Source of the DNA: Escherichia phage ukendt
Length of the DNA stretch: 64,000 nt
Reading direction: 5' to 3' (one strand)
Sequence record: NC_052661.1
Below are positions 5,311-31,829 of this stretch, piece after piece. The notes under the pieces were generated by a model. The model was given only the letters and a program-made list of their open reading frames with translations, searched no databases and was not told the DNA's origin. Made by a program: the position numbers and the translations under genes. The stretch's first letter is position 1, and every line of letters starts with the position of its first letter.

Positions 5311-5571
5311 TTACTCCGCAATTTGAGCCATGAGATCACGCAGTTCGGTAAAACCGCCTACGTATGTTACCTCCCCGTTCACTTCAGACAGAATTTGTGG
5401 AAATGTGCGTGGAGGAACTCCGGTAAGATCAACAACTGTTTTAGTCATTGATTCTAAATCGTAGTCTTGGTCAAGACTTAAATATTCAAACTGTTTATTG
5501 CGCATGGTTAATAGTTGTTTTGACATTTCGCAAAATTGACAGTTAGGTTTACCAAAAATTACAAATTCCAT
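5311..5571 (-). CDS. glutaredoxin/NrdH-like redoxin
   Basis: N-terminal CxxC active site (GKPNCQFCE), 86 aa, adjacent to RNR genes. Confidence 0.65.
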   Translation of the reverse strand: MEFVIFGKPNCQFCEMSKQLLTMRNKQFEYLSLDQDYDLESMTKTVVDLTGVPPRTFPQILSEVNGEVTYVGGFTELRDLMAQIAE

Positions 5572-6413
5572 TACCTCTCCTTATTAAGTAATACTGCTAA
5601 AGACCGTTCAATACCTTTATTTAAATCTGATTTTGTAAGATAGTGACTGGTTACTAATTGTGACTTCACCGGACGTGCTGCTGGAGCATTATAGGTTGAA
5701 GCTGATACCGCCGATATCTTAACAGGTTCTGGCATCTGTGTCAAGATCTTTTCCGCAAACTCCGCCCAAGAAATAAGATGGCTTCCTGCAAAATGGTAAG
5801 TCTTAACAGACCTTGACCAACCTGTTTTTAATACTTCAAAAATAGCTTCTGCTAAATCTGGAGCATATGTTGGACAAGAGAACTGATCAGCAACAATAAT
5901 AAAATCACGTTGTCCATCATTATAGCGAGACAACATGGTTTTTAGAAAGTTATTTCCAAATTCGCTATATACCGAGGCTGTTCGAATAATATATGCATTT
6001 GGGTTAACTCCTCGCACCATTTTTTCACCAAGTTCTTTCGTATACCCATAATTGTTTATTGGGTTAGGTGTAGTATCTTCAAAAATAGGATGAGAATAAT
6101 TAAAAATATAGTCTGTAGAAATATGCACAAAATCAATTTTAAGTTTACTGCACACTGCTGCAATGTTTGCAGGGCCGTAGGCATTAACAGCCAAAGCAGT
6201 AGCAAAATCATGTTCTGCTTTATCTACAGCCGTATAAGCAGCGCAATTAATAACACCATCTACATAATCTTCAATAATAGCGTTGCGCACGGCTTCAAAA
6301 TTTGTAATATCTACACGTTCTTTAGGATAAATTAAAGATACGTTTGAAGGAGCCACTTTACGTAAAGCTTGTCCCAGTTGTCCATTACCACCCAATACCA
6401 GATATGTTAGCAT
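5571..6413 (-). CDS. rmlD: dTDP-4-dehydrorhamnose reductase (RmlD-like)
   Basis: Rossmann start [17 protein letters not shown], ~280 aa, last gene of rml operon. Confidence 0.75.
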   Translation of the reverse strand: MLTYLVLGGNGQLGQALRKVAPSNVSLIYPKERVDITNFEAVRNAIIEDYVDGVINCAAYTAVDKAEHDFATALAVNAYGPANIAAVCSKLKIDFVHISTDYIFNYSHPIFEDTTPNPINNYGYTKELGEKMVRGVNPNAYIIRTASVYSEFGNNFLKTMLSRYNDGQRDFIIVADQFSCPTYAPDLAEAIFEVLKTGWSRSVKTYHFAGSHLISWAEFAEKILTQMPEPVKISAVSASTYNAPAARPVKSQLVTSHYLTKSDLNKGIERSLAVLLNKER

Positions 6414-6973
6414 ACACCCTCACTACGTAGCTGTTGAAAAGACTTAGCCATTGCATCTTTTGTTGATAAGATAGGTTTAAAATCTTCGTCAAAAATCATA
6501 TCGAAGCCCCAATCAATCCCTATATCAGGATCATCCCAACGTAAACTTTGCTCGCTGGAAGGGTCGTATGGAGTTGTGCATTTGTATTCGAAGATAGCAT
6601 CCATACTCAAGACTATAAAGCCATGTGCCAAACCAGGTGGAAGCCAGAACTGTGTATGGTGTCGTGCACGAAGAACAACACCGTCCCAAGCACCGTAAGT
6701 TGGACTGTCTTTACGTAAGTCTACAGCGAAATCCAATACTTCACCACTTACACAACGAACAAGCTTGCCTTGTGGATTATTTGTTTGGAAGTGCATTCCT
6801 CGCAAAACACCGAAGTTTGATTTAGACATGTTATCTTGAACGAAAGTTTGTTTACCAATAATATCTTCGTATTTTTGTTCATTGTATGTTTCTAAAAAGA
6901 AACCACGATCATCTTTATAAACGTCTGGTTTGATAATTACCGCACCTTCGATTTTTGTTTTTTCTACTTTCAT
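6407..6973 (-). CDS. rmlC: dTDP-4-dehydrorhamnose 3,5-epimerase (RmlC-like cupin)
   Basis: [10 protein letters not shown]...GMHFQ...[11 protein letters not shown]...YGAWDGVVL epimerase signature; start set at internal ATG 6973 (SD GGAGAG; ATGA overlap with rmlA stop). Confidence 0.75.
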
Positions 6974-7848
6974 TTTCTCTCCGCTAATTTGAGTAGGTAT
7001 TGCCCGTACTCTGTTTTCTTCAGTGAGTTTCCATGGTACACCAAAGTCTCTAAAGAAATCCACCCTTTTTTGAAAGCAATTTCTTCCAGGCACGCAATCT
7101 TCAATCCTTGGCAGTTCTCAATAGTCTGCACGAATTGACCAGCTTCCATCAGACTGGCGTGTGTTCCTGTGTCAAGCCAAGTAAATCCTCGTCCGAGAAC
7201 TTCTACTTGTAACTTCCTGTCTTCGAGGTAGCTGCGATTGATATCTGTGATCTCCAGTTCTCCACGCGAGGAAGGGGTTACTTCTAGTGCGCGTTGAACA
7301 ACAGAATTATCATAGAAATACAAACCTGTGACAGCATAATCTGATTTAGGATTTTCAGGTTTCTCTTCAATAGAAATAGCTTGACGATTACTCCCAAATT
7401 CAACCACGCCGAATCGTTCAGGATCTTTCACCAAATACCCAAAGATACAAGCTCCGCCCCAAACATCTACCATCTCACTGGCATTAATCAGTAGTTTACC
7501 AAAGCTTTGTCCGAAGAATAGGTTGTCACCTAAAATAAGAGCAACAGAGTCTTCTCCGATAAAATCTTTACCGATGATGAAAGCCTCCGCAAGACCTCGT
7601 GGCTCGGATTGGATTGCGTAAGTGAGTTTTATCCCAAACATAGACCCATCTCCGAGAAGATACTTAAAGTCTTCCTGATCGCCTGGTGTGGTGATGATTA
7701 AGATATCTTTAATGTCAGCCAACATCAATACCGATAAAGGGTAGTAGATCATGGGTTTGTCATACACAGGGAGCAATTGCTTGCTCACACTGCGTGTTAC
7801 CGGATGAAGGCGGGTTCCACTTCCTCCCGCCAAAATAATACCTTTCAT
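6970..7848 (-). CDS. rmlA: glucose-1-phosphate thymidylyltransferase (RmlA)
   Basis: [18 protein letters not shown] nucleotidyltransferase signature, 292 aa. Confidence 0.85.
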
Positions 7849-7856
7849 AACCCTCC

Positions 7857-8849
7857 TTAAATCTTCTCACTCCACCATTGAGGGTTGTTTAAGTACCATT
7901 CAATCGTTGAGTAGAGATCTTGTTCAAATGTAGAGTTTGCACTCCAACCCAGTTCAGACTCTATTTTAGAAGGATTGATTTCATAACGCAAGTCATGTCC
8001 TTTACGATCTTCAACAAAAGTTATCAAGTTGGAAGAAGGGTAGGTTCCTGCTTCTGGATGTACAGCATCCATGTAGTCACAAACCATATAGATGATCTCC
8101 ATATTGGTTTTGGGATTACGTGTTCCAATATTATACGTTTGACCTGGTTCTCCACCTGTTGCCACTTGAAGAATAGCTCGCGCATGATCCTCCACAAAAA
8201 GCCAGTCTCGCACCTGATCGCCTTTACCATACACTGGAATCTTTTTATTCGTCAAGATACTTGTGATGATTTTTGGGATCAGCTTTTCTGGATGTTGATA
8301 AGGTCCAAAGTTATTGGAGCAGTTGGTTATCACAACAGGTAAGTCGTAGGTACGGTGCCAAGCTTTCACAAGATGGTCAGATGCTGCCTTAGACGCACTG
8401 TACGGGCTTGAAGGGGCATAAGCTGTCTCTTCGGTAAAAGGAACGCCAGAGTCTGCCATATCGCCGTACACTTCGTCTGTGGAGACGTGTACGAACATCT
8501 TCAGTTTATTCTTTGGGAGGAGCCTTGCAGCTTCCAATAAATTGTATGTACCAATAATATTGGAGTCGATGAAAGCTCGTGGATTCTTGATAGAATTATC
8601 CACATGACTCTCTGCCGCTAAGTGAATGATGAAATCGGGATTGCACTCTACTACTAAACTTTTGACCTGGGCTTCGTTTGCCAAATCTGTTATACTTAGT
8701 TTAGCGTGAGTGATATCGCCTACATTCTTAATGTCTGCTGCATAGCTCATCTTATCAACGACAAAAACTTCGTTATTGGGATCTTGACAAAGAGAGCGCA
8801 CCACGGCGCTCCCAATAAAACCAAGACCACCTGTTACCAGATAGCGCAT
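7857..8849 (-). CDS. rmlB: dTDP-glucose 4,6-dehydratase (RmlB)
   Basis: [21 protein letters not shown]-binding motif, SDR YxxxK (YSASKAAS), 330 aa. Confidence 0.85.
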
Positions 8850-19247: not shown

Positions 19248-19276
19248 AAAAAGCCTACCTCATTAAGTAGGTAGGC
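19248..19276 (-). terminator. intrinsic terminator (minus strand)
   Basis: 8-bp stem GCCTACCT/AGGTAGGC, 8-nt loop, followed by UUUUUA on minus-strand transcript. Confidence 0.55.
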
Positions 19277-21362: not shown

Positions 21363-22490
21363 TTACTCTGCTGGTTCCCAAGTGCCTGGGATCATTTCTC
21401 GAATACGAACACCAACAGGTTTTGTTGGAATACCTTCATCTGAAAATTCTTCATACTCTATTTCAACGAACTGATTAATCAAGGTAGAAGCATTCTCTGC
21501 TTTACGATAATTGATAGTCTCATGAGCATCTTTACGCATTAAGAATTCGACTACTTTACCATTTTCCATCTCACCTGTCAACACTCCATCACCATTTTTA
21601 TCACTTTTTGAATTTGTTACTTTAACTTCAAGGGTGTGGCGAGGCTTACGTTTAATAACGTCATAAGAACGTTTATCAAATTCGTAAACTCCGTTAGCAT
21701 TACGATATACTACACCTTCAGCTTTCTCAAGTAAAGCTTTTTCATAGAAAGCATCAAACTGTTCTTGGTTTTCAATATACTCTGTATGAACTACGCAAAT
21801 AAGCTCGTCAAGACCATAATCTTCAACTACTGCCTTAAGAGCAGCAAGAACATCAACACGTTTTTCAAACGGTAGATCTGGAACTGGAATATCATATACG
21901 TAATAATTCAGCAAAGGTGTATTTGCATTATGCTTCTTCCAGGCACTGTTAATTTGTTGCAGACTAAGGACACCTAACCCAGCAAACACTTCACCATCAA
22001 GAGGATGACCAACAACTTCACTAATAAAGTTTGGAATACCTTTCCAATGAGGTGGCAGGTTATACACTTCCCCAGCTTTTGATAAACACTCTCCTTTCAT
22101 GTTAATCATAGAACGTAACCCGTTCAGTTTGTATTGTGCATAACCAGGGAACACAACCCTTTCAGGATAATCTTTATAATCCTGGCATTTCATTGGTGTG
22201 GAAGGAACATGGTTTTCAGCTTCTTCTTTTGTTTTATAATAGCCATTCTTTAACTGTTTTGTCCATTTGGCAAAAGCTTCAAGTTCAGCTTGTTCTTCCG
22301 GTGTTGTTTCATTGGAACGACCAATGTTTTTTGCTTCTGCTGTATAAGATTTTTCTGTGATTTTTCCACCTACTCTTCCATGAGCTACAGTAACAACTGC
22401 ACCATCTGTATACACTGTCCACTGTTTAAGTTTTCCTTTTGAATCTTTACCATACAGCGTTTGATTTGTTTGTTGCATCAGTCCTCCCAT
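21363..22490 (-). CDS. ATP-dependent polynucleotide ligase (covalent nucleotidyltransferase; RNA- or DNA-ligase)
   Basis: motif I YKLNGLR (KxNG), motif III LDGEVF, motif IV EGVVYR, motif V DVIKRK; 375 aa. Confidence 0.6.
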   Translation of the reverse strand: MGGLMQQTNQTLYGKDSKGKLKQWTVYTDGAVVTVAHGRVGGKITEKSYTAEAKNIGRSNETTPEEQAELEAFAKWTKQLKNGYYKTKEEAENHVPSTPMKCQDYKDYPERVVFPGYAQYKLNGLRSMINMKGECLSKAGEVYNLPPHWKGIPNFISEVVGHPLDGEVFAGLGVLSLQQINSAWKKHNANTPLLNYYVYDIPVPDLPFEKRVDVLAALKAVVEDYGLDELICVVHTEYIENQEQFDAFYEKALLEKAEGVVYRNANGVYEFDKRSYDVIKRKPRHTLEVKVTNSKSDKNGDGVLTGEMENGKVVEFLMRKDAHETINYRKAENASTLINQFVEIEYEEFSDEGIPTKPVGVRIREMIPGTWEPAE

Positions 22491-23232: not shown

Positions 23233-23637
23233 TTATTGAAGTTTAAGTGAACCACGAAGACGTTTCTCTTGCTGATCACGGATATATTGTGGAACCTCGT
23301 GAATTGAATCATTACCGTGCCTATTTTCAACAACTAAAGAGATAACTTGATAACCAAACTCTTCAGCAAGAGCTAGATAAGGTTTAAGTTCTTTCTCTGT
23401 GGTTGAAGTATTAGAAACAATAATCTTGTTAAGATTAGATGCCATAGCATCACGAACAATACCCTGACACCATGCGTGTGCTTTACCTACATTTTCTGGC
23501 TTCCAATCGTAAACACCACTCTCTGTGTAATGATATTGATCTGCCTCACAGATAGGCCAATAACCTTCAGAAATAATTTCTGCTACTGTAGATTTACCAG
23601 CACCTGAAACGCCACGTAAAATGATAAGTTGTTTCAT
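23233..23637 (-). CDS. polynucleotide 5'-kinase (Pnk-type P-loop kinase domain)
   Basis: P-loop GVSGAGKST; KIIVSNTSTTEKE parallels T4 Pnkp kinase VIISDTNLNPERR; TAATG overlap with ligase stop. Confidence 0.65.
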   Translation of the reverse strand: MKQLIILRGVSGAGKSTVAEIISEGYWPICEADQYHYTESGVYDWKPENVGKAHAWCQGIVRDAMASNLNKIIVSNTSTTEKELKPYLALAEEFGYQVISLVVENRHGNDSIHEVPQYIRDQQEKRLRGSLKLQ

Positions 23638-24570
23638 TTATCCTCCAAAAAAGTTTTCGATTTTTTCACGTCGCTCTTGCTGATTTAAAGCAGCCCATTG
23701 AATCTTCGTAAAATTATTTCGAATCCATTCTAACAAAGCGTAATATTCTTCGTCAACCATTTGTTTGGCATTTTTTGGATTATCCCAAATCAGATCCCAC
23801 TTTTTATCTCCACCGCGCATAAGAAACTTCTTAGTAAGATAGTGTGGTGATTTAATTTTTAAAAGTAAGTTGAACGGATAGTTTGTTTCACGAACTACAA
23901 ACCCTTCGTGTTTACAATGTTTAGACATTTCAACAACATCTGAAAACTTAACCATTGGATGAACTTCAGGACGCTTAAATTTGGTGACAGAAGCAATTCC
24001 ATCAAGAGCACCTTCAGGTAACATAAAACTTGTCCCATCAGGATTTTGAATTCTGGCACCAATTAAGTATGCACCTGGTTCTTCTTCGACAATATGCGGA
24101 TCAGAAGGATCACAGATTTCAAAAAGGAAAGTTGCTTTTGCGCTCTCTGTCCATTTGATGAAATGTTCTATGTCATCACACTCTGAAACAATATGATTCT
24201 TTGCAATACTTGCAAAATCTGATTCAAGGCTTCCTGTTGTCGATACAATAAGTTGACCTTTATATACACCTACAGAGGCCATAAAACCATTTACTTTACG
24301 AACCACATCTACAAGTTCATCCGCTGGTAGATCTGTGCCATTCTCAAAACGATTAAAAATCTTAGTGAAAGGCCAAATAACAACATTGTCATCAGCATCA
24401 ACAACGATTCCGCGACATTCTAGAAGACGAGAATCAATGCTCCATAAGTTATCCCAGAAAACTTTGTTCTTATACTTAAGAACAGATAGACCAGAATACT
24501 CTCCTTCTTTATATGTTTTCTTATGAACTAAACCTTTTTCAACCAAATCGTCGCAATTAAATTTAGTCAC
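23638..24570 (-). CDS. RNA ligase, Rnl1 family
   Basis: LLECRGIVVDADDN vs T4 Rnl1 ALECRGIMFEMDGE; motif I RKVNGFMASV vs TKEDGSLVST; PFTKIFN vs PMEKFFN; GTG start. Confidence 0.75.
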   Translation of the reverse strand: MTKFNCDDLVEKGLVHKKTYKEGEYSGLSVLKYKNKVFWDNLWSIDSRLLECRGIVVDADDNVVIWPFTKIFNRFENGTDLPADELVDVVRKVNGFMASVGVYKGQLIVSTTGSLESDFASIAKNHIVSECDDIEHFIKWTESAKATFLFEICDPSDPHIVEEEPGAYLIGARIQNPDGTSFMLPEGALDGIASVTKFKRPEVHPMVKFSDVVEMSKHCKHEGFVVRETNYPFNLLLKIKSPHYLTKKFLMRGGDKKWDLIWDNPKNAKQMVDEEYYALLEWIRNNFTKIQWAALNQQERREKIENFFGG

Positions 24571-24571
24571 A

Positions 24572-25123
24572 TTACTCTCCTTTGATTATTTTGTGATGGT
24601 CTACAGTCACGATATCTCGTTTACTCATCATAGAAATTATCTCATCAAAATGCAAGATTTTTCCGTGTGCATCCCAACCCACATCTAACATTTTACCATA
24701 AGCTTCATCAGGGAAAGATCCGTGGGAATGCCCATGTAGCATGATTGATCCACGACCTTGTTTATTCCAGGAGGCAATAGGGTAATGACTTAAGACGAAG
24801 AACAGCTTCTGGTATTTCACTTCGTCATAATACACCACTTCGCCATACTCTGCAAGCACTTCTCGGTGTTTGCTGTAGTCATGGTTCCCAACACAGTAGG
24901 TGATATCTCCTTGGAGACGGGAAGCAATTTTACGGGTATCTTCTTCAGTTCCGAAACAGAAGTCGCCCAAATGCCACATCTTAACACCAGGAGTAGTAGC
25001 ACATTTGTTCCATGCTTCGATCAAGGCTTCTGTCATGTGGTCCATATCTTCCCACGGACGATATTCAGGAGCAAACTCTCGAATACGTTTATGCATAAAA
25101 TGCAAATCGCTTGTAATAAACAT
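24572..25123 (-). CDS. calcineurin-like metallophosphoesterase (candidate RNA 2',3'-phosphoesterase)
   Basis: SDLHF (DxH), LGDF (GD), GNHDY (GNHD), LHGHSHG; 183 aa; separated from ligase stop by 1 nt. Confidence 0.7.
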   Translation of the reverse strand: MFITSDLHFMHKRIREFAPEYRPWEDMDHMTEALIEAWNKCATTPGVKMWHLGDFCFGTEEDTRKIASRLQGDITYCVGNHDYSKHREVLAEYGEVVYYDEVKYQKLFFVLSHYPIASWNKQGRGSIMLHGHSHGSFPDEAYGKMLDVGWDAHGKILHFDEIISMMSKRDIVTVDHHKIIKGE

Positions 25124-25479
25124 TAGTATAATCCCTCGCTAAATAATTCATGATCGTGACCATTACGCTCATGGTCGATCTGGTCAGCATTTTCCGCGAT
25201 GATGTAAGCATCCGCACGACTCCACCAATTGTAATACTGATCGATAAAGCCTTGATTATCTGGTGTGCACAAAGTTTTGTTGATTACACCTGCTTCTTTC
25301 AACACGTTTAACTGTGCATATAGTACAGGATTTGCATGTCGAACACAAGGAATAATTAACTCTTCACCATTATTCAAAATATACTTATTTGCAGCACAGA
25401 CGATAACACGTTGCGCATAATGACCCTCACCCATCCAGGTAAGAGGTTGGTAACAAATATTGTTTTCAATACCACTCAT
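25123..25479 (-). CDS. hypothetical protein (118 aa)
   Basis: ORF with SD GAGGAGGA. Confidence 0.5.
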   Translation of the reverse strand: MSGIENNICYQPLTWMGEGHYAQRVIVCAANKYILNNGEELIIPCVRHANPVLYAQLNVLKEAGVINKTLCTPDNQGFIDQYYNWWSRADAYIIAENADQIDHERNGHDHELFSEGLY

Positions 25480-25638: not shown

Positions 25639-25995
25639 TTAATAGTGCACACGAATCATTTTAATACCATAACGCAGCATGGATTCTTTTGCAAGCATGA
25701 ATTTATCCCCAGCGGCGGGATTAGAAGTATGCACGAAAATGGTAGGTGAACCAAAGCAAGGTTTACCAAACGCCAAAAGTTCTTCCAGGCGCAGGAAAAC
25801 ATCATACCCATCTTGGTCAGAATCTTCACCCAAATCGTTGTCAAAATGCCACTCGTCTACAAAACGATAACCCTTCTGCACCTCGTTCATGTAGCGAGAG
25901 GCAAGAAGTTCCTGTGATGTTTTAAACCAGATTGCATCTGGACAACCATAATCTTTTGGATCACGTAAATCATCAAGCCAAATAATAGTACCCAT
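25639..25995 (-). CDS. hypothetical alpha/beta-type protein (118 aa)
   Basis: N-terminus MGTIIWLDDLRDP; sits next to the RNA-repair cassette; family not confirmed. Confidence 0.5.
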   Translation of the reverse strand: MGTIIWLDDLRDPKDYGCPDAIWFKTSQELLASRYMNEVQKGYRFVDEWHFDNDLGEDSDQDGYDVFLRLEELLAFGKPCFGSPTIFVHTSNPAAGDKFMLAKESMLRYGIKMIRVHY

Positions 25996-30137: not shown

Positions 30138-30228
30138 GGAAGGGCAAATCGACGTGGCGACGAAAACGGTCTTGAAAACCGCCGAGCTTGAAAGAGCCTT
30201 GGGAGTTCGACTCTCCCTCCTTCCGCCA
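30138..30228 (+). tRNA. tRNA-Ser (anticodon TGA), class II
   Basis: anticodon arm ACGGT-CTTGAAA-ACCGC and long variable arm as in E. coli tRNA-Ser(UGA); 3' end TCCTTCC-G-CCA; D-region irregular. Confidence 0.6.
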
Positions 30229-30448: not shown

Positions 30449-30536
30449 GGTGAGTTAATTCCGTAGGGGTAGCGGGGCAGACTGTAAATCTGTTATCATT
30501 GCGATTCGGGTGGTTCGACTCCATCACTCACCACCA
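30449..30536 (+). tRNA. tRNA-Tyr (anticodon GTA), class II
   Basis: acceptor GGTGAGT/ACTCACC, anticodon arm GCAGA-CTGTAAA-TCTGT (as E. coli tRNA-Tyr), long variable arm, A73, CCA. Confidence 0.7.
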
Positions 30537-31672: not shown

Positions 31673-31787
31673 AATATCGCTTGCCAGCGGTATCTTTGAA
31701 GACCTTGCCTGGTTCCTTCTAAGATGGAGGGGTGCGACTCCTTAACGCACAATTATAATAAAGCATTTCAAATTAACAGTATTTATT

Positions 31788-31810
31788 AGCCTCCTTATTG
31801 GAGGCTTTTT
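31788..31810 (+). terminator. intrinsic terminator closing the tRNA array
   Basis: AGCCTCC-ttatt-GGAGGCT followed by TTTTT. Confidence 0.7.
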
Positions 31811-31829
31811 GCTATCTATTGAATAAAAC

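What the first reader, a model, noticed from the sequence alone, without database searches (positions are those of the whole stretch)
23233..25123. Split three-gene RNA-repair cassette: metallophosphoesterase, Rnl1-type RNA ligase, Pnk-type 5'-kinase
Three consecutive minus-strand ORFs with TAATG or 1-nt junctions encode a calcineurin-like metallophosphoesterase (DxH, GD, GNHD, GH.H), an Rnl1-family RNA ligase (ECRGIV, motif I RKVNG, collinear with T4 Rnl1 over ~100 aa) and a P-loop kinase resembling the T4 Pnkp kinase domain (GAGKST; IIVSNTSTT vs VIISDTNLN). T4 couples kinase to a HAD-type phosphatase in one Pnkp polypeptide; here the end-healing activities are separate proteins and the phosphatase is a binuclear metallophosphoesterase, as in bacterial Pnkp/Hen1 systems. 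With the nearby second KxNG ligase (21363..22490) and the 12-tRNA array, this looks like a counter-defence module against host anticodon nucleases, in an architecture I do not recognise as a described phage system.
Basis: partly seen in the sequence, partly recalled or inferred. Interest (0 to 1): 0.8.

Follow-up and report, generated by a model that had tools for sequence, protein, structure and literature searches.

The report
Phage three-gene RNA repair cassette
Three adjacent genes of this E. coli phage encode a phosphoesterase, an RNA ligase and an RNA 5'-kinase that together most likely mend tRNAs cut by bacterial defence nucleases; the cassette is real and widespread, but its kind has already been predicted in the literature and none of its enzymes has been tested.

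Summary
Window 23233-25123 (minus strand) carries three tightly packed genes. They encode a binuclear metallophosphoesterase (MPE), an Rnl1/Trl1-type ATP-dependent RNA ligase and a stand-alone polynucleotide 5'-kinase. All catalytic motifs are invariant across homologues.

The window is a Phapecoctavirus (phAPEC8-like E. coli myophage).

- **Kinase-ligase core:** in 80 diverse viral contigs carrying a ligase relative, the kinase lies within 7 kb in 74. Gene order is shuffled, and in 11 contigs kinase and ligase are fused into one protein.
- **MPE link is looser:** the MPE lies near the ligase in 65 of those 80 contigs. However, about half of MPE relatives occur without ligase or kinase.
- **Natural deletion:** a few sister phages keep the MPE but have lost ligase and kinase together.

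The best reading is a split "heal-and-seal" RNA repair pathway acting against tRNA-cutting host nucleases.

- The MPE belongs to the uncharacterised aq_1665/COG4186 clade, not the lambda-phosphatase/CthPnkp clade.
- The "second ligase" is the phage's ATP-dependent DNA ligase.
- The architecture is not undescribed. Iyer et al. 2022 reported it for rV5/Mydo phages, and GenBank records already name the genes.

No biochemical work on these proteins was found. Modest interest.

The parts
24572..25123 (-). Binuclear metallophosphoesterase (183 aa) of the aq_1665/COG4186 clade. Proposed 3'-end healing enzyme (2',3'-cyclic phosphodiesterase / 3'-phosphatase).
   Evidence: phrog_547 8.8e-56. Pfam Metallophos_2 3.4e-5, below the gathering score. 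All MPE metal-binding motifs are invariant in 36 homologues. The profile hits PDB 1xm7 at 7e-23 and nothing else. It lies within 7 kb of the ligase in 65/80 ligase-seeded viral contigs.
23638..24570 (-). ATP-dependent RNA ligase (310 aa, GTG start) of the Rnl1/Trl1 structural clade, with a short helical C-terminal region.
   Evidence: Pfam PF09511 3.8e-15, 56.8 bits against a cutoff of 28.3, covering model positions 1-227 of 227. The profile hits T4 Rnl1 2c5u at 1.2e-10. AF2 pLDDT is 92. Foldseek top hits are Trl1-LIG and T4 Rnl1, with TM up to 0.68. Motifs I, III, IV and V are invariant.
23233..23637 (-). Stand-alone polynucleotide 5'-OH kinase (134 aa), T4 Pnk / CthPnk type, with no fused phosphatase.
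   Evidence: Pfam AAA_33 2.7e-10; phrog_505 (polynucleotide kinase) 7.9e-8. Profile hits in the PDB: Pnkp1 4xrp 1.8e-7, T4 Pnk 1ly1 6.6e-5 over the full length, CthPnk 5e-4. AF2 pLDDT is 93.5, and the top 23 Foldseek hits are all CthPnk or T4 Pnk, TM 0.69-0.79. It lies near the ligase in 74/80 contigs and is fused to it in 11.
25639..25995 (-). cREC (cyclic-phosphate processing receiver) domain protein, 118 aa. A probable accessory of the cassette in this phage lineage.
   Evidence: Pfam PF20274 cREC_REC 3.4e-13. It was found in only 13 of the 83 sequences in the ligase set, namely rV5-like and phAPEC8-like phages. Its function is predicted, not tested (PMC7824862, PMC9503650).
25123..25479 (-). 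118-aa protein of unknown function, translationally coupled (TAATG) to the MPE. Membership in the cassette is doubtful.
   Evidence: phrog_839 4.1e-47. It belongs to a widespread ~95-aa domain family (302 representatives) with the motif RH...QGFxDQxGxF..R..A..IA...GQ...ELFSExLY. No Pfam, NCBIfam or PDB relative was found. It is present in only 6 of the 83 sequences.

Best explanation
This is a split, three-protein 'heal-and-seal' RNA repair pathway of a phAPEC8-like phage.

Proposed steps:
1. Host metal-independent ribonucleases cut tRNA anticodon loops or other RNAs, leaving 2',3'-cyclic phosphate and 5'-OH ends. Candidates are PrrC/RloC-type anticodon nucleases, colicin-like tRNases and HEPN effectors.
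2. The MPE opens and removes the cyclic or 3' phosphate to give a 3'-OH. The nearby cREC protein may help.
3. The 134-aa kinase transfers a phosphate from an NTP to the 5'-OH, using P-loop K15 and Asp33 as the likely general base.
4. The ligase is adenylylated on Lys92, activates the 5'-phosphate and seals the break.

Kinase and ligase form the obligate core. The MPE is a frequent but separable partner.

What is shown: the gene structure, the family and fold of each protein, intact catalytic residues, conserved linkage, and the fusions. What is inferred: the substrates, the order of steps, the role of the MPE on RNA ends, and the counter-defence role.
For: - **Ligase.** It passes the Pfam RNA_lig_T4_1 threshold over the full model. 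Its profile aligns with T4 Rnl1 at 1.2e-10, matching R54, K75, F77, K99, G102, E159, E227, G228, K240 and K242 to invariant residues. The model's best structural matches are Trl1-LIG and T4 Rnl1.
- **Kinase.** Its best PDB profile hits and its top 23 Foldseek hits are all polynucleotide kinases of RNA repair systems.
- **MPE.** It keeps all dinuclear-metal motifs. MPE-superfamily enzymes (CthPnkp, lambda phosphatase) are known to heal 2',3'-cyclic and 3'-phosphate RNA ends (PMC2190708).
- **Linkage.** Of 80 IMG/VR contigs with ligase relatives (39-87% identity), 74 carry the kinase and 65 the MPE within 7 kb. Gene orders are PLK 42, KLP 17, LPK 3 and KPL 1. In 60 of 61 trios all three genes run in the same direction. 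The median K-L gap is 10 nt.
- **Fusions.** Eleven contigs encode a single kinase-ligase protein of 421-432 aa.
- **Kinase follows the RNA ligase.** In MPE-seeded loci the kinase is present in 29/42 with the RNA ligase and 1/38 without it.
- **Natural variants.** Sister phages (phiWec179/181/186, PsgM04F) have lost ligase and kinase together, while the DNA ligase and the MPE stay. This is the behaviour expected of a dispensable accessory counter-defence module.
- **Genomic setting.** In other phages the cassette sits beside genes resembling an NAD+ reconstitution pathway, Sir2, Macro, MazG and cREC genes, many of them known or predicted counter-defence functions.
- **Literature.** The same reading was reached independently in PMC9503650, PMC7824862 and PMC12846349.
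Against: - No enzyme of this cassette has been assayed, and no paper with biochemistry was found in five literature searches.
- The MPE clade (aq_1665/COG4186) has no known substrate.
- 38 of 80 MPE-seeded loci lack ligase and kinase, and sister phages keep the MPE after losing both. The MPE must therefore have a role that does not need them.
- The ligase is not an equivalog of T4 RnlA: NCBIfam 24 bits against a cutoff of 242. It lacks most of the T4 C-terminal tRNA-specificity domain, so tRNA is not a demonstrated substrate.
- The kinase has His36 where T4 Pnk has Arg38, and Asn76 where T4 has Asp85.
- Stephanstirmvirinae remain sensitive to at least one tRNA-nicking defence, retron Eco2 (PMC12916289).
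- The loci in the synteny counts are phylogenetically related, so the counts overstate independence.
Confidence: 0.7

Rival explanations
1. Only kinase and ligase form the repair module. On this view the MPE is a neighbour with another job, such as hydrolysing nucleotide or cyclic-nucleotide signals or acting on DNA or protein. The 3' ends would be healed by something else (cREC, a host enzyme) or would not need healing.
For: - 38/80 MPE-seeded loci have no ligase or kinase.
- phiWec179-type phages and L087 keep cREC and the MPE after losing ligase and kinase.
- The K-L fusion contigs have no MPE within 7 kb.
- The P-L median gap (222 nt) is larger than the K-L gap (10 nt).
- The clade is functionally uncharacterised.
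Against: - The MPE lies within 7 kb of the ligase in 65/80 contigs, down to 39% ligase identity.
- It is co-directional with ligase and kinase in 60/61 trios, and its position has been rearranged relative to them (PLK, KLP, LPK, KPL).
- It abuts the ligase (gap of 50 nt or less) in 21 contigs.
- A ligase of this type needs a 3'-OH, and the stand-alone kinase has no phosphatase domain, so a 3'-healing activity is otherwise missing.
Confidence: 0.2
2. A Trl1-like, NAD+-linked pathway as proposed by Iyer et al. In this scheme cREC opens the cyclic phosphate to a 2'-phosphate, the ligase seals 3'-OH,2'-PO4 / 5'-PO4 ends, and a phage sirtuin removes the 2'-phosphate in a KptA-like manner. The MPE would process ADP-ribose cyclic phosphate or other by-products.
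For: - cREC sits 516 nt upstream of the MPE.
- Foldseek's best ligase matches include fungal Trl1-LIG.
- Sir2 genes lie beside the cassette in 11 loci.
- Phapecoctaviruses do encode a Sir2 homologue.
- The model is published (PMC9503650).
Against: - There is no Sir2 in the 64-kb window. In a sister genome it lies in an unrelated block of hypothetical genes.
- cREC occurs in 13/83 and Sir2 in 11/83 ligase loci, against 68/83 for the MPE.
- cREC and sirtuin activities on RNA ends are themselves untested predictions.
Confidence: 0.15
3. A DNA end-processing module. On this view the kinase and MPE clean 5'-OH/3'-phosphate DNA breaks for the neighbouring ATP-dependent DNA ligase, as PNKP does in DNA repair.
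For: - A DNA ligase lies within 7 kb in 43/80 ligase-seeded loci.
- The cassette is embedded among DNA-metabolism genes: RdgC, exonucleases, ribonucleotide reductase, ThyX.
- T4 Pnk and CthPnk structures are solved with DNA oligonucleotides bound (entries listed).
- The MPE shows a very weak resemblance to the ligase-associated PdeM (16.5 bits against a cutoff of 150).
Against: - The kinase tracks the RNA ligase, not the DNA ligase. It is fused to the RNA ligase in 11 contigs and is deleted together with it in phiWec179-type phages, where the DNA ligase stays.
- MPE-only loci rarely have a DNA ligase (6/38).
- The PdeM score is far below threshold.
Confidence: 0.06
4. The ligase homologue serves mainly as a tail-fibre attachment factor, the second activity of T4 gp63. 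That is why many records call it 'RNA ligase and tail fiber protein attachment catalyst'.
For: Only annotation transfer from T4 gp63 through phrog_562.
Against: - All nucleotidyl-transferase residues are invariant across homologues at 50-86% identity.
- The gene sits in the early/replication block on the strand opposite to the structural genes.
- It is fused or coupled to a polynucleotide kinase.
- It is dispensable in viable sister phages.
Confidence: 0.03

Closest known systems
Phage T4 Pnkp (PseT) + Rnl1 (gp63) tRNA repair pathway against the PrrC anticodon nuclease
   Same: The logic is the same: 3' healing, 5' phosphorylation, then ATP-dependent sealing. The ligase shares the Rnl1 fold and catalytic residues. 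The kinase shares the T4 Pnk kinase fold, P-loop and catalytic Asp. Both modules are dispensable accessory genes.
   Different: In T4 the kinase is fused to a HAD (DxDxT) phosphatase. Here the kinase stands alone and the candidate phosphatase is a separate MPE. The ligase is 310 aa rather than 374 aa, with only about 65 aa after motif V, and it is not an NCBIfam equivalog of RnlA. In T4 the two genes are not adjacent (my recollection, not checked here); here all three abut.
Clostridium thermocellum Pnkp/Hen1 and Capnocytophaga Pnkp1-Rnl-Hen1 bacterial RNA repair systems
   Same: Both combine kinase, MPE-superfamily phosphatase and ligase chemistry. Pnkp1 (4xrp) is the best PDB profile hit of the kinase, and CthPnk is its best structural match.
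   Different: CthPnkp carries all three activities in one polypeptide, with an Rnl4-type ligase and a lambda-phosphatase-type MPE. Here there are three proteins, an Rnl1/Trl1-type ligase and an aq_1665-type MPE with no detectable profile match to lambda-phosphatase-type enzymes. No Hen1 methyltransferase was seen among the recurrent neighbours.
Sirtuin-associated RNA repair neighbourhood of phage rV5 / Proteus phage Mydo (Iyer, Burroughs, Aravind 2022, PMC9503650, section 3.7.3)
   Same: The gene families are the same: T4-like tRNA ligase, cREC, nucleotide kinase, MazG pyrophosphatase and a calcineurin-like phosphoesterase. All five are present in the window between 20245 and 25995. The rV5-like loci L005-L009 are direct relatives.
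   Different: The defining sirtuin is not linked here: none in the window, and it lies elsewhere in a sister genome. Here the three core genes abut with 0-1 nt spacers, whereas in rV5-like loci they are separated by 330-1000 nt of other genes. The MPE, called 'occasional' in that paper, is the most frequent partner after the kinase in my sample.
Fungal/plant tRNA ligase Trl1 (LIG-KIN-CPD)
   Same: Trl1-LIG is among the best structural matches of the ligase. The kinase-ligase fusions found in metagenomic phage contigs echo the Trl1 fusion of ligase and kinase.
   Different: Trl1 has the order ligase-kinase-2H phosphodiesterase and needs a 2'-phosphate. Here the fusion order is kinase-ligase, there is no 2H domain, and the 3' end chemistry is unknown.

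Membership tests
Rnl1 / RNA_lig_T4_1 (PF09511) ATP-dependent RNA ligases | Pfam PF09511 match above the gathering score, covering the whole nucleotidyltransferase domain | tested here: met
   56.8 bits against a cutoff of 28.3, E 3.8e-15, model positions 1-227 of 227.
Rnl1 / RNA_lig_T4_1 (PF09511) ATP-dependent RNA ligases | Covalent nucleotidyltransferase motifs I (KxxG), III, IV and V, plus the N-terminal Arg, Lys and Phe that are essential in T4 Rnl1 | tested here: met
   K92-x-N94-G95, E151, E222-G223, K238-x-K240, R53, K70 and F72 are invariant or nearly invariant in 30 homologues and align with T4 K99, E159, E227/G228, K240/K242, R54, K75 and F77. The list of essential T4 residues is recalled from the Shuman-laboratory mutagenesis literature and was not re-read here. 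T4 K119 aligns with an invariant Thr.
Rnl1 / RNA_lig_T4_1 (PF09511) ATP-dependent RNA ligases | Fold closest to T4 Rnl1 / Trl1-LIG rather than to the Rnl2, Rnl3 or Rnl5 clades or to DNA ligases | tested here: met
   AF2 model pLDDT 92. Foldseek E-values: Trl1-LIG and T4 Rnl1 4e-13 to 2e-11, Rnl3 about 1e-9, Rnl2 about 5e-7, Rnl5 about 1e-5.
T4 RnlA equivalog (TIGR02308), i.e. the tRNA-specific Rnl1 proper | Full-length equivalence, including the C-terminal tRNA-specificity domain (T4 residues ~255-374) | tested here: not met
   NCBIfam score of 24 bits against a cutoff of 242, and only residues 43-166 match. The profile alignment with 2c5u ends at query 239 / T4 249. Only about 65 helical residues follow motif V.
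Polynucleotide 5'-OH kinase (T4 Pnk / CthPnk type P-loop kinases) | P-loop GxxGxGK(S/T), plus the catalytic Asp general base about 20 residues downstream | tested here: met
   G9-x-x-G12-x-G14-K15-S16 and A32-D33 are invariant. D33 aligns with T4 Asp35 in the 1ly1 alignment.
Polynucleotide 5'-OH kinase (T4 Pnk / CthPnk type P-loop kinases) | Closest solved relatives, by sequence profile and by fold, are polynucleotide kinases rather than nucleotide or sugar kinases | tested here: met
   Profile hits: Pnkp1 1.8e-7, T4 Pnk 6.6e-5 (full length), CthPnk 5e-4, ahead of gluconate, adenylate and NR kinases. Foldseek ranks 1-23 are all CthPnk or T4 Pnk, TM 0.69-0.79.
Polynucleotide 5'-OH kinase (T4 Pnk / CthPnk type P-loop kinases) | T4 substrate-binding residues Arg38 and Asp85, and the lid arginines | tested here: inconclusive
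   His36 (at least 90% conserved) replaces Arg38, and Asn76 (invariant) replaces Asp85. T77 matches T86. Invariant R106 lies in the lid region, but its equivalence to R122 or R126 is ambiguous. The roles of the T4 residues are recalled, not re-read.
T4-type bifunctional Pnkp | Kinase fused to a HAD (DxDxT) 3'-phosphatase domain | tested here: not met
   The protein is 134 aa and is kinase domain only. The same point is made for the Pakpunavirus orthologue in PMC12846349.
Lambda-phosphatase / CthPnkp-type end-healing metallophosphoesterase | Dinuclear MPE motifs DxH, GD, GNH(D/E), H, GHxH | tested here: met
   D6-x-H8, G53-D54, G79-N80-H81-D82, H113 and G131-H132-x-H134 are invariant in 36 homologues.
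Lambda-phosphatase / CthPnkp-type end-healing metallophosphoesterase | Detectable sequence-profile relationship to lambda phosphatase or to the CthPnkp phosphatase domain | tested here: not met
   A profile of 36 homologues against all PDB sequences at E up to 1 finds aq_1665 (1xm7, 7e-23), then only marginal hits to GpdQ-type and COG0622 enzymes. No lambda-phosphatase-type chain is listed. That a CthPnkp phosphatase-domain structure exists in the PDB is my recollection.
Lambda-phosphatase / CthPnkp-type end-healing metallophosphoesterase | 2',3'-cyclic phosphodiesterase and 3'-phosphomonoesterase activity on RNA ends | not testable with these tools
   This needs purified protein.
rV5/Mydo sirtuin-centred RNA repair neighbourhood (Iyer et al. 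2022) | Co-located T4-like ligase, cREC, nucleotide kinase and MazG, with or without a calcineurin-like phosphoesterase | tested here: met
   All five lie between 20245 and 25995 on one strand.
rV5/Mydo sirtuin-centred RNA repair neighbourhood (Iyer et al. 2022) | Sirtuin gene in the same neighbourhood | tested here: not met
   tblastn of an rV5-type Sir2 against the window gives no hit at E up to 10. The Phapecoctavirus Sir2 lies in a block of hypothetical genes that contains none of the cassette genes.

The most novel reading that the evidence does not exclude
The aq_1665/COG4186 metallophosphoesterase clade has a crystal structure but no known function. In this reading it is the 3'-end healing enzyme of a phage RNA repair pathway. 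That pathway is built from a mobile two-gene (sometimes fused) kinase-ligase unit that plugs in next to the MPE. This would give the MPE clade its first function and define a third phage solution to 3' healing, beside the HAD and HD phosphatases (the HD case is recalled, not checked here). The natural ligase/kinase-minus phages would provide ready-made controls.
Probability: 0.5. Interest if true: 0.45.

Novelty: new member of a known kind. Interest (0 to 1): 0.3.

Why it matters
tRNA-cutting defences are a fast-growing class of bacterial immunity. Examples are PrrC, RloC, retron effectors, PARIS, Cas13 and OLD-family enzymes. Phage answers to them are known experimentally almost only from T4 (repair) and from tRNA replacement.

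- **Scale.** The adjacent kinase-ligase pair occurs in at least 466 of 50,697 sequenced phage genomes, across Escherichia, Pseudomonas, Vibrio, Klebsiella, Acinetobacter and Aeromonas phages. These include therapy candidates.
- **Practical value.** If the cassette works as predicted, it helps explain host range on strains carrying such defences.
- **Enzymology.** It would assign a function to an orphan metallophosphoesterase clade.
- **Limit.** The concept is not new. The gain would be biochemical confirmation and a clean modular example.

Tried and rejected
- **Single-sequence PDB searches.** These found nothing useful for the ligase (no hit at E up to 1) or the kinase (only P-loop noise). 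Profiles of homologues were needed.
- **Looking for a sirtuin in the window.** I scanned 20 further ORFs with Pfam and ran tblastn. None was found.
- **Promoter scan.** It was uninformative: 36 sites against 32.5 expected. Only the terminator after RdgC at 19253-19276 stands out.
- **Burroughs & Aravind 2016 NAR paper on RNA repair systems.** I tried to read it but it is not held, so what it says about this cassette is unchecked.
- **The 118-aa neighbour.** I tested whether it is part of the cassette. It has no Pfam, NCBIfam or PDB relative, its fusions carry no known domain, and it co-occurs in only 6 of 83 sequences. It is therefore left as a side observation.
- **MPE and DNA ligase.** I considered that the MPE is linked to the DNA ligase (PdeM-like). 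I rejected this on score (16.5 against 150 bits) and on co-occurrence (6/38).
- **Second 'KxNG ligase'.** I rejected the idea that it is an RNA ligase (PF01068, phrog_114, NCBIfam DNA ligase models).


Full report
**What the window is.**
The region is 99.3% identical to Escherichia phage Mt1B1_P17. It is 95-99% identical to about fifty other phAPEC8-like myophages (Phapecoctavirus, Stephanstirmvirinae). The finding lies in a long minus-strand block of early and DNA-metabolism genes. That block runs from a divergent region near 28.3 kb down to a strong terminator at 19253-19276. A plus-strand tRNA array follows at 29.7-31.7 kb.

**Check of the observation.**
- The three ORFs are at the stated coordinates.
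- The DNA shows TAA-T-GTG between the MPE and the ligase, and TAA-ATG between the ligase and the kinase.
- The TAATG overlap joins the upstream 118-aa ORF to the MPE.
- Each start has a GGAG-type ribosome-binding site, and the homologues share the same N-termini.
They are invariant in alignments of 30-36 homologues at 36-89% identity.

- ORF 21363-22490 is an ATP-dependent DNA ligase (PF01068, phrog_114, NCBIfam DNA ligase models).
- ARAGORN finds ten tRNAs. Rfam adds a tRNA-Tyr(GUA) above threshold and a Ser(UGA)-like element below it.

**The ligase.**
- It passes Pfam RNA_lig_T4_1 over the full model.
- No single-sequence PDB hit appeared. A 30-sequence profile, however, aligns residues 48-239 with T4 Rnl1 at 1.2e-10.
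- That alignment places Lys92, Glu151, Glu222-Gly223 and Lys238/Lys240 on T4 motifs I, III, IV and V. It places Arg53, Lys70 and Phe72 on the T4 N-terminal essentials.
- The AlphaFold model (pLDDT 92) is closest to fungal Trl1-LIG and T4 Rnl1. It is clearly further from the Rnl3, Rnl2 and Rnl5 clades and from DNA ligases.
- It is not a T4 RnlA equivalog (24 bits against a cutoff of 242). Only a short helical tail stands where T4 has its tRNA-specificity domain. Substrate choice is therefore open.

**The kinase.**
- At 134 aa it is a bare P-loop kinase.
- The profile's best PDB hits are Pnkp1 of the Pnkp1-Rnl-Hen1 repair complex, fungal kinases solved with GDP, T4 Pnk (full length) and CthPnk.
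- The top 23 Foldseek hits of the model (pLDDT 93.5) are all CthPnk or T4 Pnk, with TM 0.69-0.79.
- The catalytic Asp is conserved (D33). Two T4 substrate contacts are replaced: Arg38 by His36, and Asp85 by Asn76.

**The MPE.**
- All dinuclear metal motifs are invariant.
- Its only solved relative by profile is Aquifex aq_1665 (1xm7, 7e-23), a protein with a solved structure and no assigned function. Nothing of the lambda-phosphatase/CthPnkp type is found.
- The comparison with bacterial Pnkp/Hen1 therefore holds only at superfamily level.
- MPE enzymes can heal cyclic and 3'-phosphate RNA ends (PMC2190708). This clade has never been tested.

**Are the three genes one system?**
I fetched 80 IMG/VR contigs encoding ligase relatives (39-87% identity) and searched them with profiles of the three proteins.
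- The kinase is within 7 kb in 74 contigs and the MPE in 65.
- Gene orders are PLK 42, KLP 17, LPK 3 and KPL 1. In 60 of 61 trios all three genes run in the same direction.
- The K-L median gap is 10 nt. In 11 contigs kinase and ligase are one 421-432-aa protein, with a full kinase domain followed by the ligase from its residue ~22.

The reverse test, 80 contigs seeded with the MPE, gives an asymmetric picture.
- 42 have the ligase and 29 of those have the kinase.
- 38 have the MPE alone. Only one of these has a kinase and six have a DNA ligase.
- These loci are related to one another, so the Fisher value (1.6e-10 for kinase with ligase) is only indicative.

Sister phages give a natural experiment. 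In contig L084 the flanks are syntenic at about 80% identity: cREC, the 118-aa gene and the MPE on one side, the coiled-coil gene and the DNA ligase on the other. Ligase and kinase, however, are replaced by one unrelated 112-aa gene. The same arrangement is present at 92-95% identity in the isolates phiWec179/181/186 and PsgM04F. L087 also lacks both genes.

Conclusions from the linkage data:
- Kinase and ligase are an obligate pair and a dispensable accessory unit.
- The kinase belongs with the RNA ligase, not the DNA ligase.
- The MPE is a frequent partner that can also stand alone.

**Context.**
- In this window cREC (PF20274, 3.4e-13) lies 516 nt upstream of the MPE. A MazG-like pyrophosphatase lies 2.3 kb downstream of the kinase.
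- In other phages the cassette sits next to PRPP-synthetase-like and NAMPT-like genes (34 and 33 loci), which resemble an NAD+ reconstitution pair. It also sits next to Sir2 (11 loci), Macro and dCMP deaminase genes.

**Mechanism.**
The best-supported model is a T4-like heal-and-seal route:
1. The MPE, perhaps with cREC, removes the 2',3'-cyclic or 3' phosphate.
2. The kinase phosphorylates the 5'-OH.
3. The ligase seals the break through a Lys92-AMP intermediate.

Shown: gene structure, families, folds, catalytic residues, linkage and fusion. Inferred: RNA (tRNA) as the substrate, the MPE's role, and the counter-defence function.

Rivals, with my weights, are not all mutually exclusive:
- The MPE is only a neighbour (0.2).
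- A Trl1-like NAD+/sirtuin route as in Iyer et al. (0.15).
- DNA end processing (0.06).
- Tail-fibre attachment (0.03).

**Comparison with what is known.**
- The concept is that of T4 Pnkp/Rnl1 and of bacterial Pnkp/Hen1.
- The specific gene neighbourhood was described computationally for rV5 and Mydo phages (PMC9503650, section 3.7.3). [quoted passage not shown]
- The jumbo-phage survey notes calcineurin-like phosphatases as occasional 3'-healing candidates (PMC7824862).
- GenBank MK373788 names the three genes.
- The phage Adele paper reads the kinase-ligase pair as tRNA repair and remarks on the missing phosphatase (PMC12846349). In Pakpunavirus-like contigs the MPE lies about 930 nt upstream of the ligase.
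- This window differs from the rV5 type in that no sirtuin is linked and the three genes abut one another.
- I found no biochemical study of any of these proteins.

**Verdict.**
This is a real, conserved and ordinary-in-kind phage RNA repair cassette. It is a new member of a known and already predicted kind. The modestly novel residue has two parts. One is the likely assignment of the orphan aq_1665-type MPE clade to RNA 3'-end healing. The other is the modular, gain-and-loss behaviour of the kinase-ligase unit. Interest 0.3.

Noticed in passing
window 25123-25479 (-): A 118-aa protein overlapping the MPE start (TAATG). It belongs to a widespread ~95-aa domain family with the motif IVCAAN...RH...QGFxDQxGxFxxRxxAxxIAxxxGQ...ELFSExLY. 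The family has 302 representatives at 50% clustering, and some members are C-terminal domains of 200-430-aa proteins. No Pfam, NCBIfam or PDB relative was found. Some records call it 'anti-restriction nuclease' without visible basis.
   Followed up: partly
L084 7558-7896 (+); the same arrangement in phiWec179/181/186 and PsgM04F: In a few sister phages the ligase and kinase genes are replaced by a single unrelated 112-aa ORF that contains an HEAIH (HExxH-like) motif. The flanking genes stay syntenic. This is a natural ligase/kinase-minus variant.
   Followed up: partly
L051, L052, L055, L057-L060, L063, L065-L067 (e.g. L055 6536-7834): Metagenomic viral contigs encode a single kinase-ligase fusion protein of 421-432 aa and have no MPE within 7 kb. 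No isolated phage in the 50,697-genome collection has the fused form; all matches there are in two pieces.
   Followed up: partly
e.g. L051 6121-6975 and L073 9476-11164: In 33-34 of the ligase-seeded contigs the cassette lies next to a PRPP-synthetase-like gene and a NAMPT/NAPRTase-like gene. These resemble a phage NAD+ reconstitution pair. A Macro domain or a Sir2 gene is sometimes nearby.
   Followed up: no
window 30449-30533 and 30138-30224 (+): Two long-variable-arm tRNA-like genes that ARAGORN misses. The first is a tRNA-Tyr(GUA) at 39 bits, above the Rfam threshold. The second is a Ser(UGA)-like element that scores only with the tRNA-Sec model, at 37 bits and below threshold.
   Followed up: partly
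window 5571-8849 (-): The phage carries RmlD-, RmlA- and RmlB-like genes (dTDP-sugar / rhamnose pathway; Pfam E-values 1e-73 to 1e-80). This suggests phage-encoded sugar-nucleotide synthesis.
   Followed up: no
window 31759-31813 (+): A weak RyhB-like Rfam match just after the tRNA array (29 bits against a gathering score of 55, E 0.016). It is probably chance.
   Followed up: no
public records matched: Near-identical Phapecoctavirus sequences are deposited under the names Campylobacter, Acinetobacter, Pseudomonas and Serratia phage. These host labels may be errors or contamination.
   Followed up: no
window 24572-25123 (-): The MPE has a very weak match to NCBIfam PdeM, the 'ligase-associated DNA damage response' phosphoesterase (16.5 bits against a cutoff of 150). 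This is far below membership. It is worth remembering because an ATP-dependent DNA ligase lies 2 kb away.
   Followed up: partly
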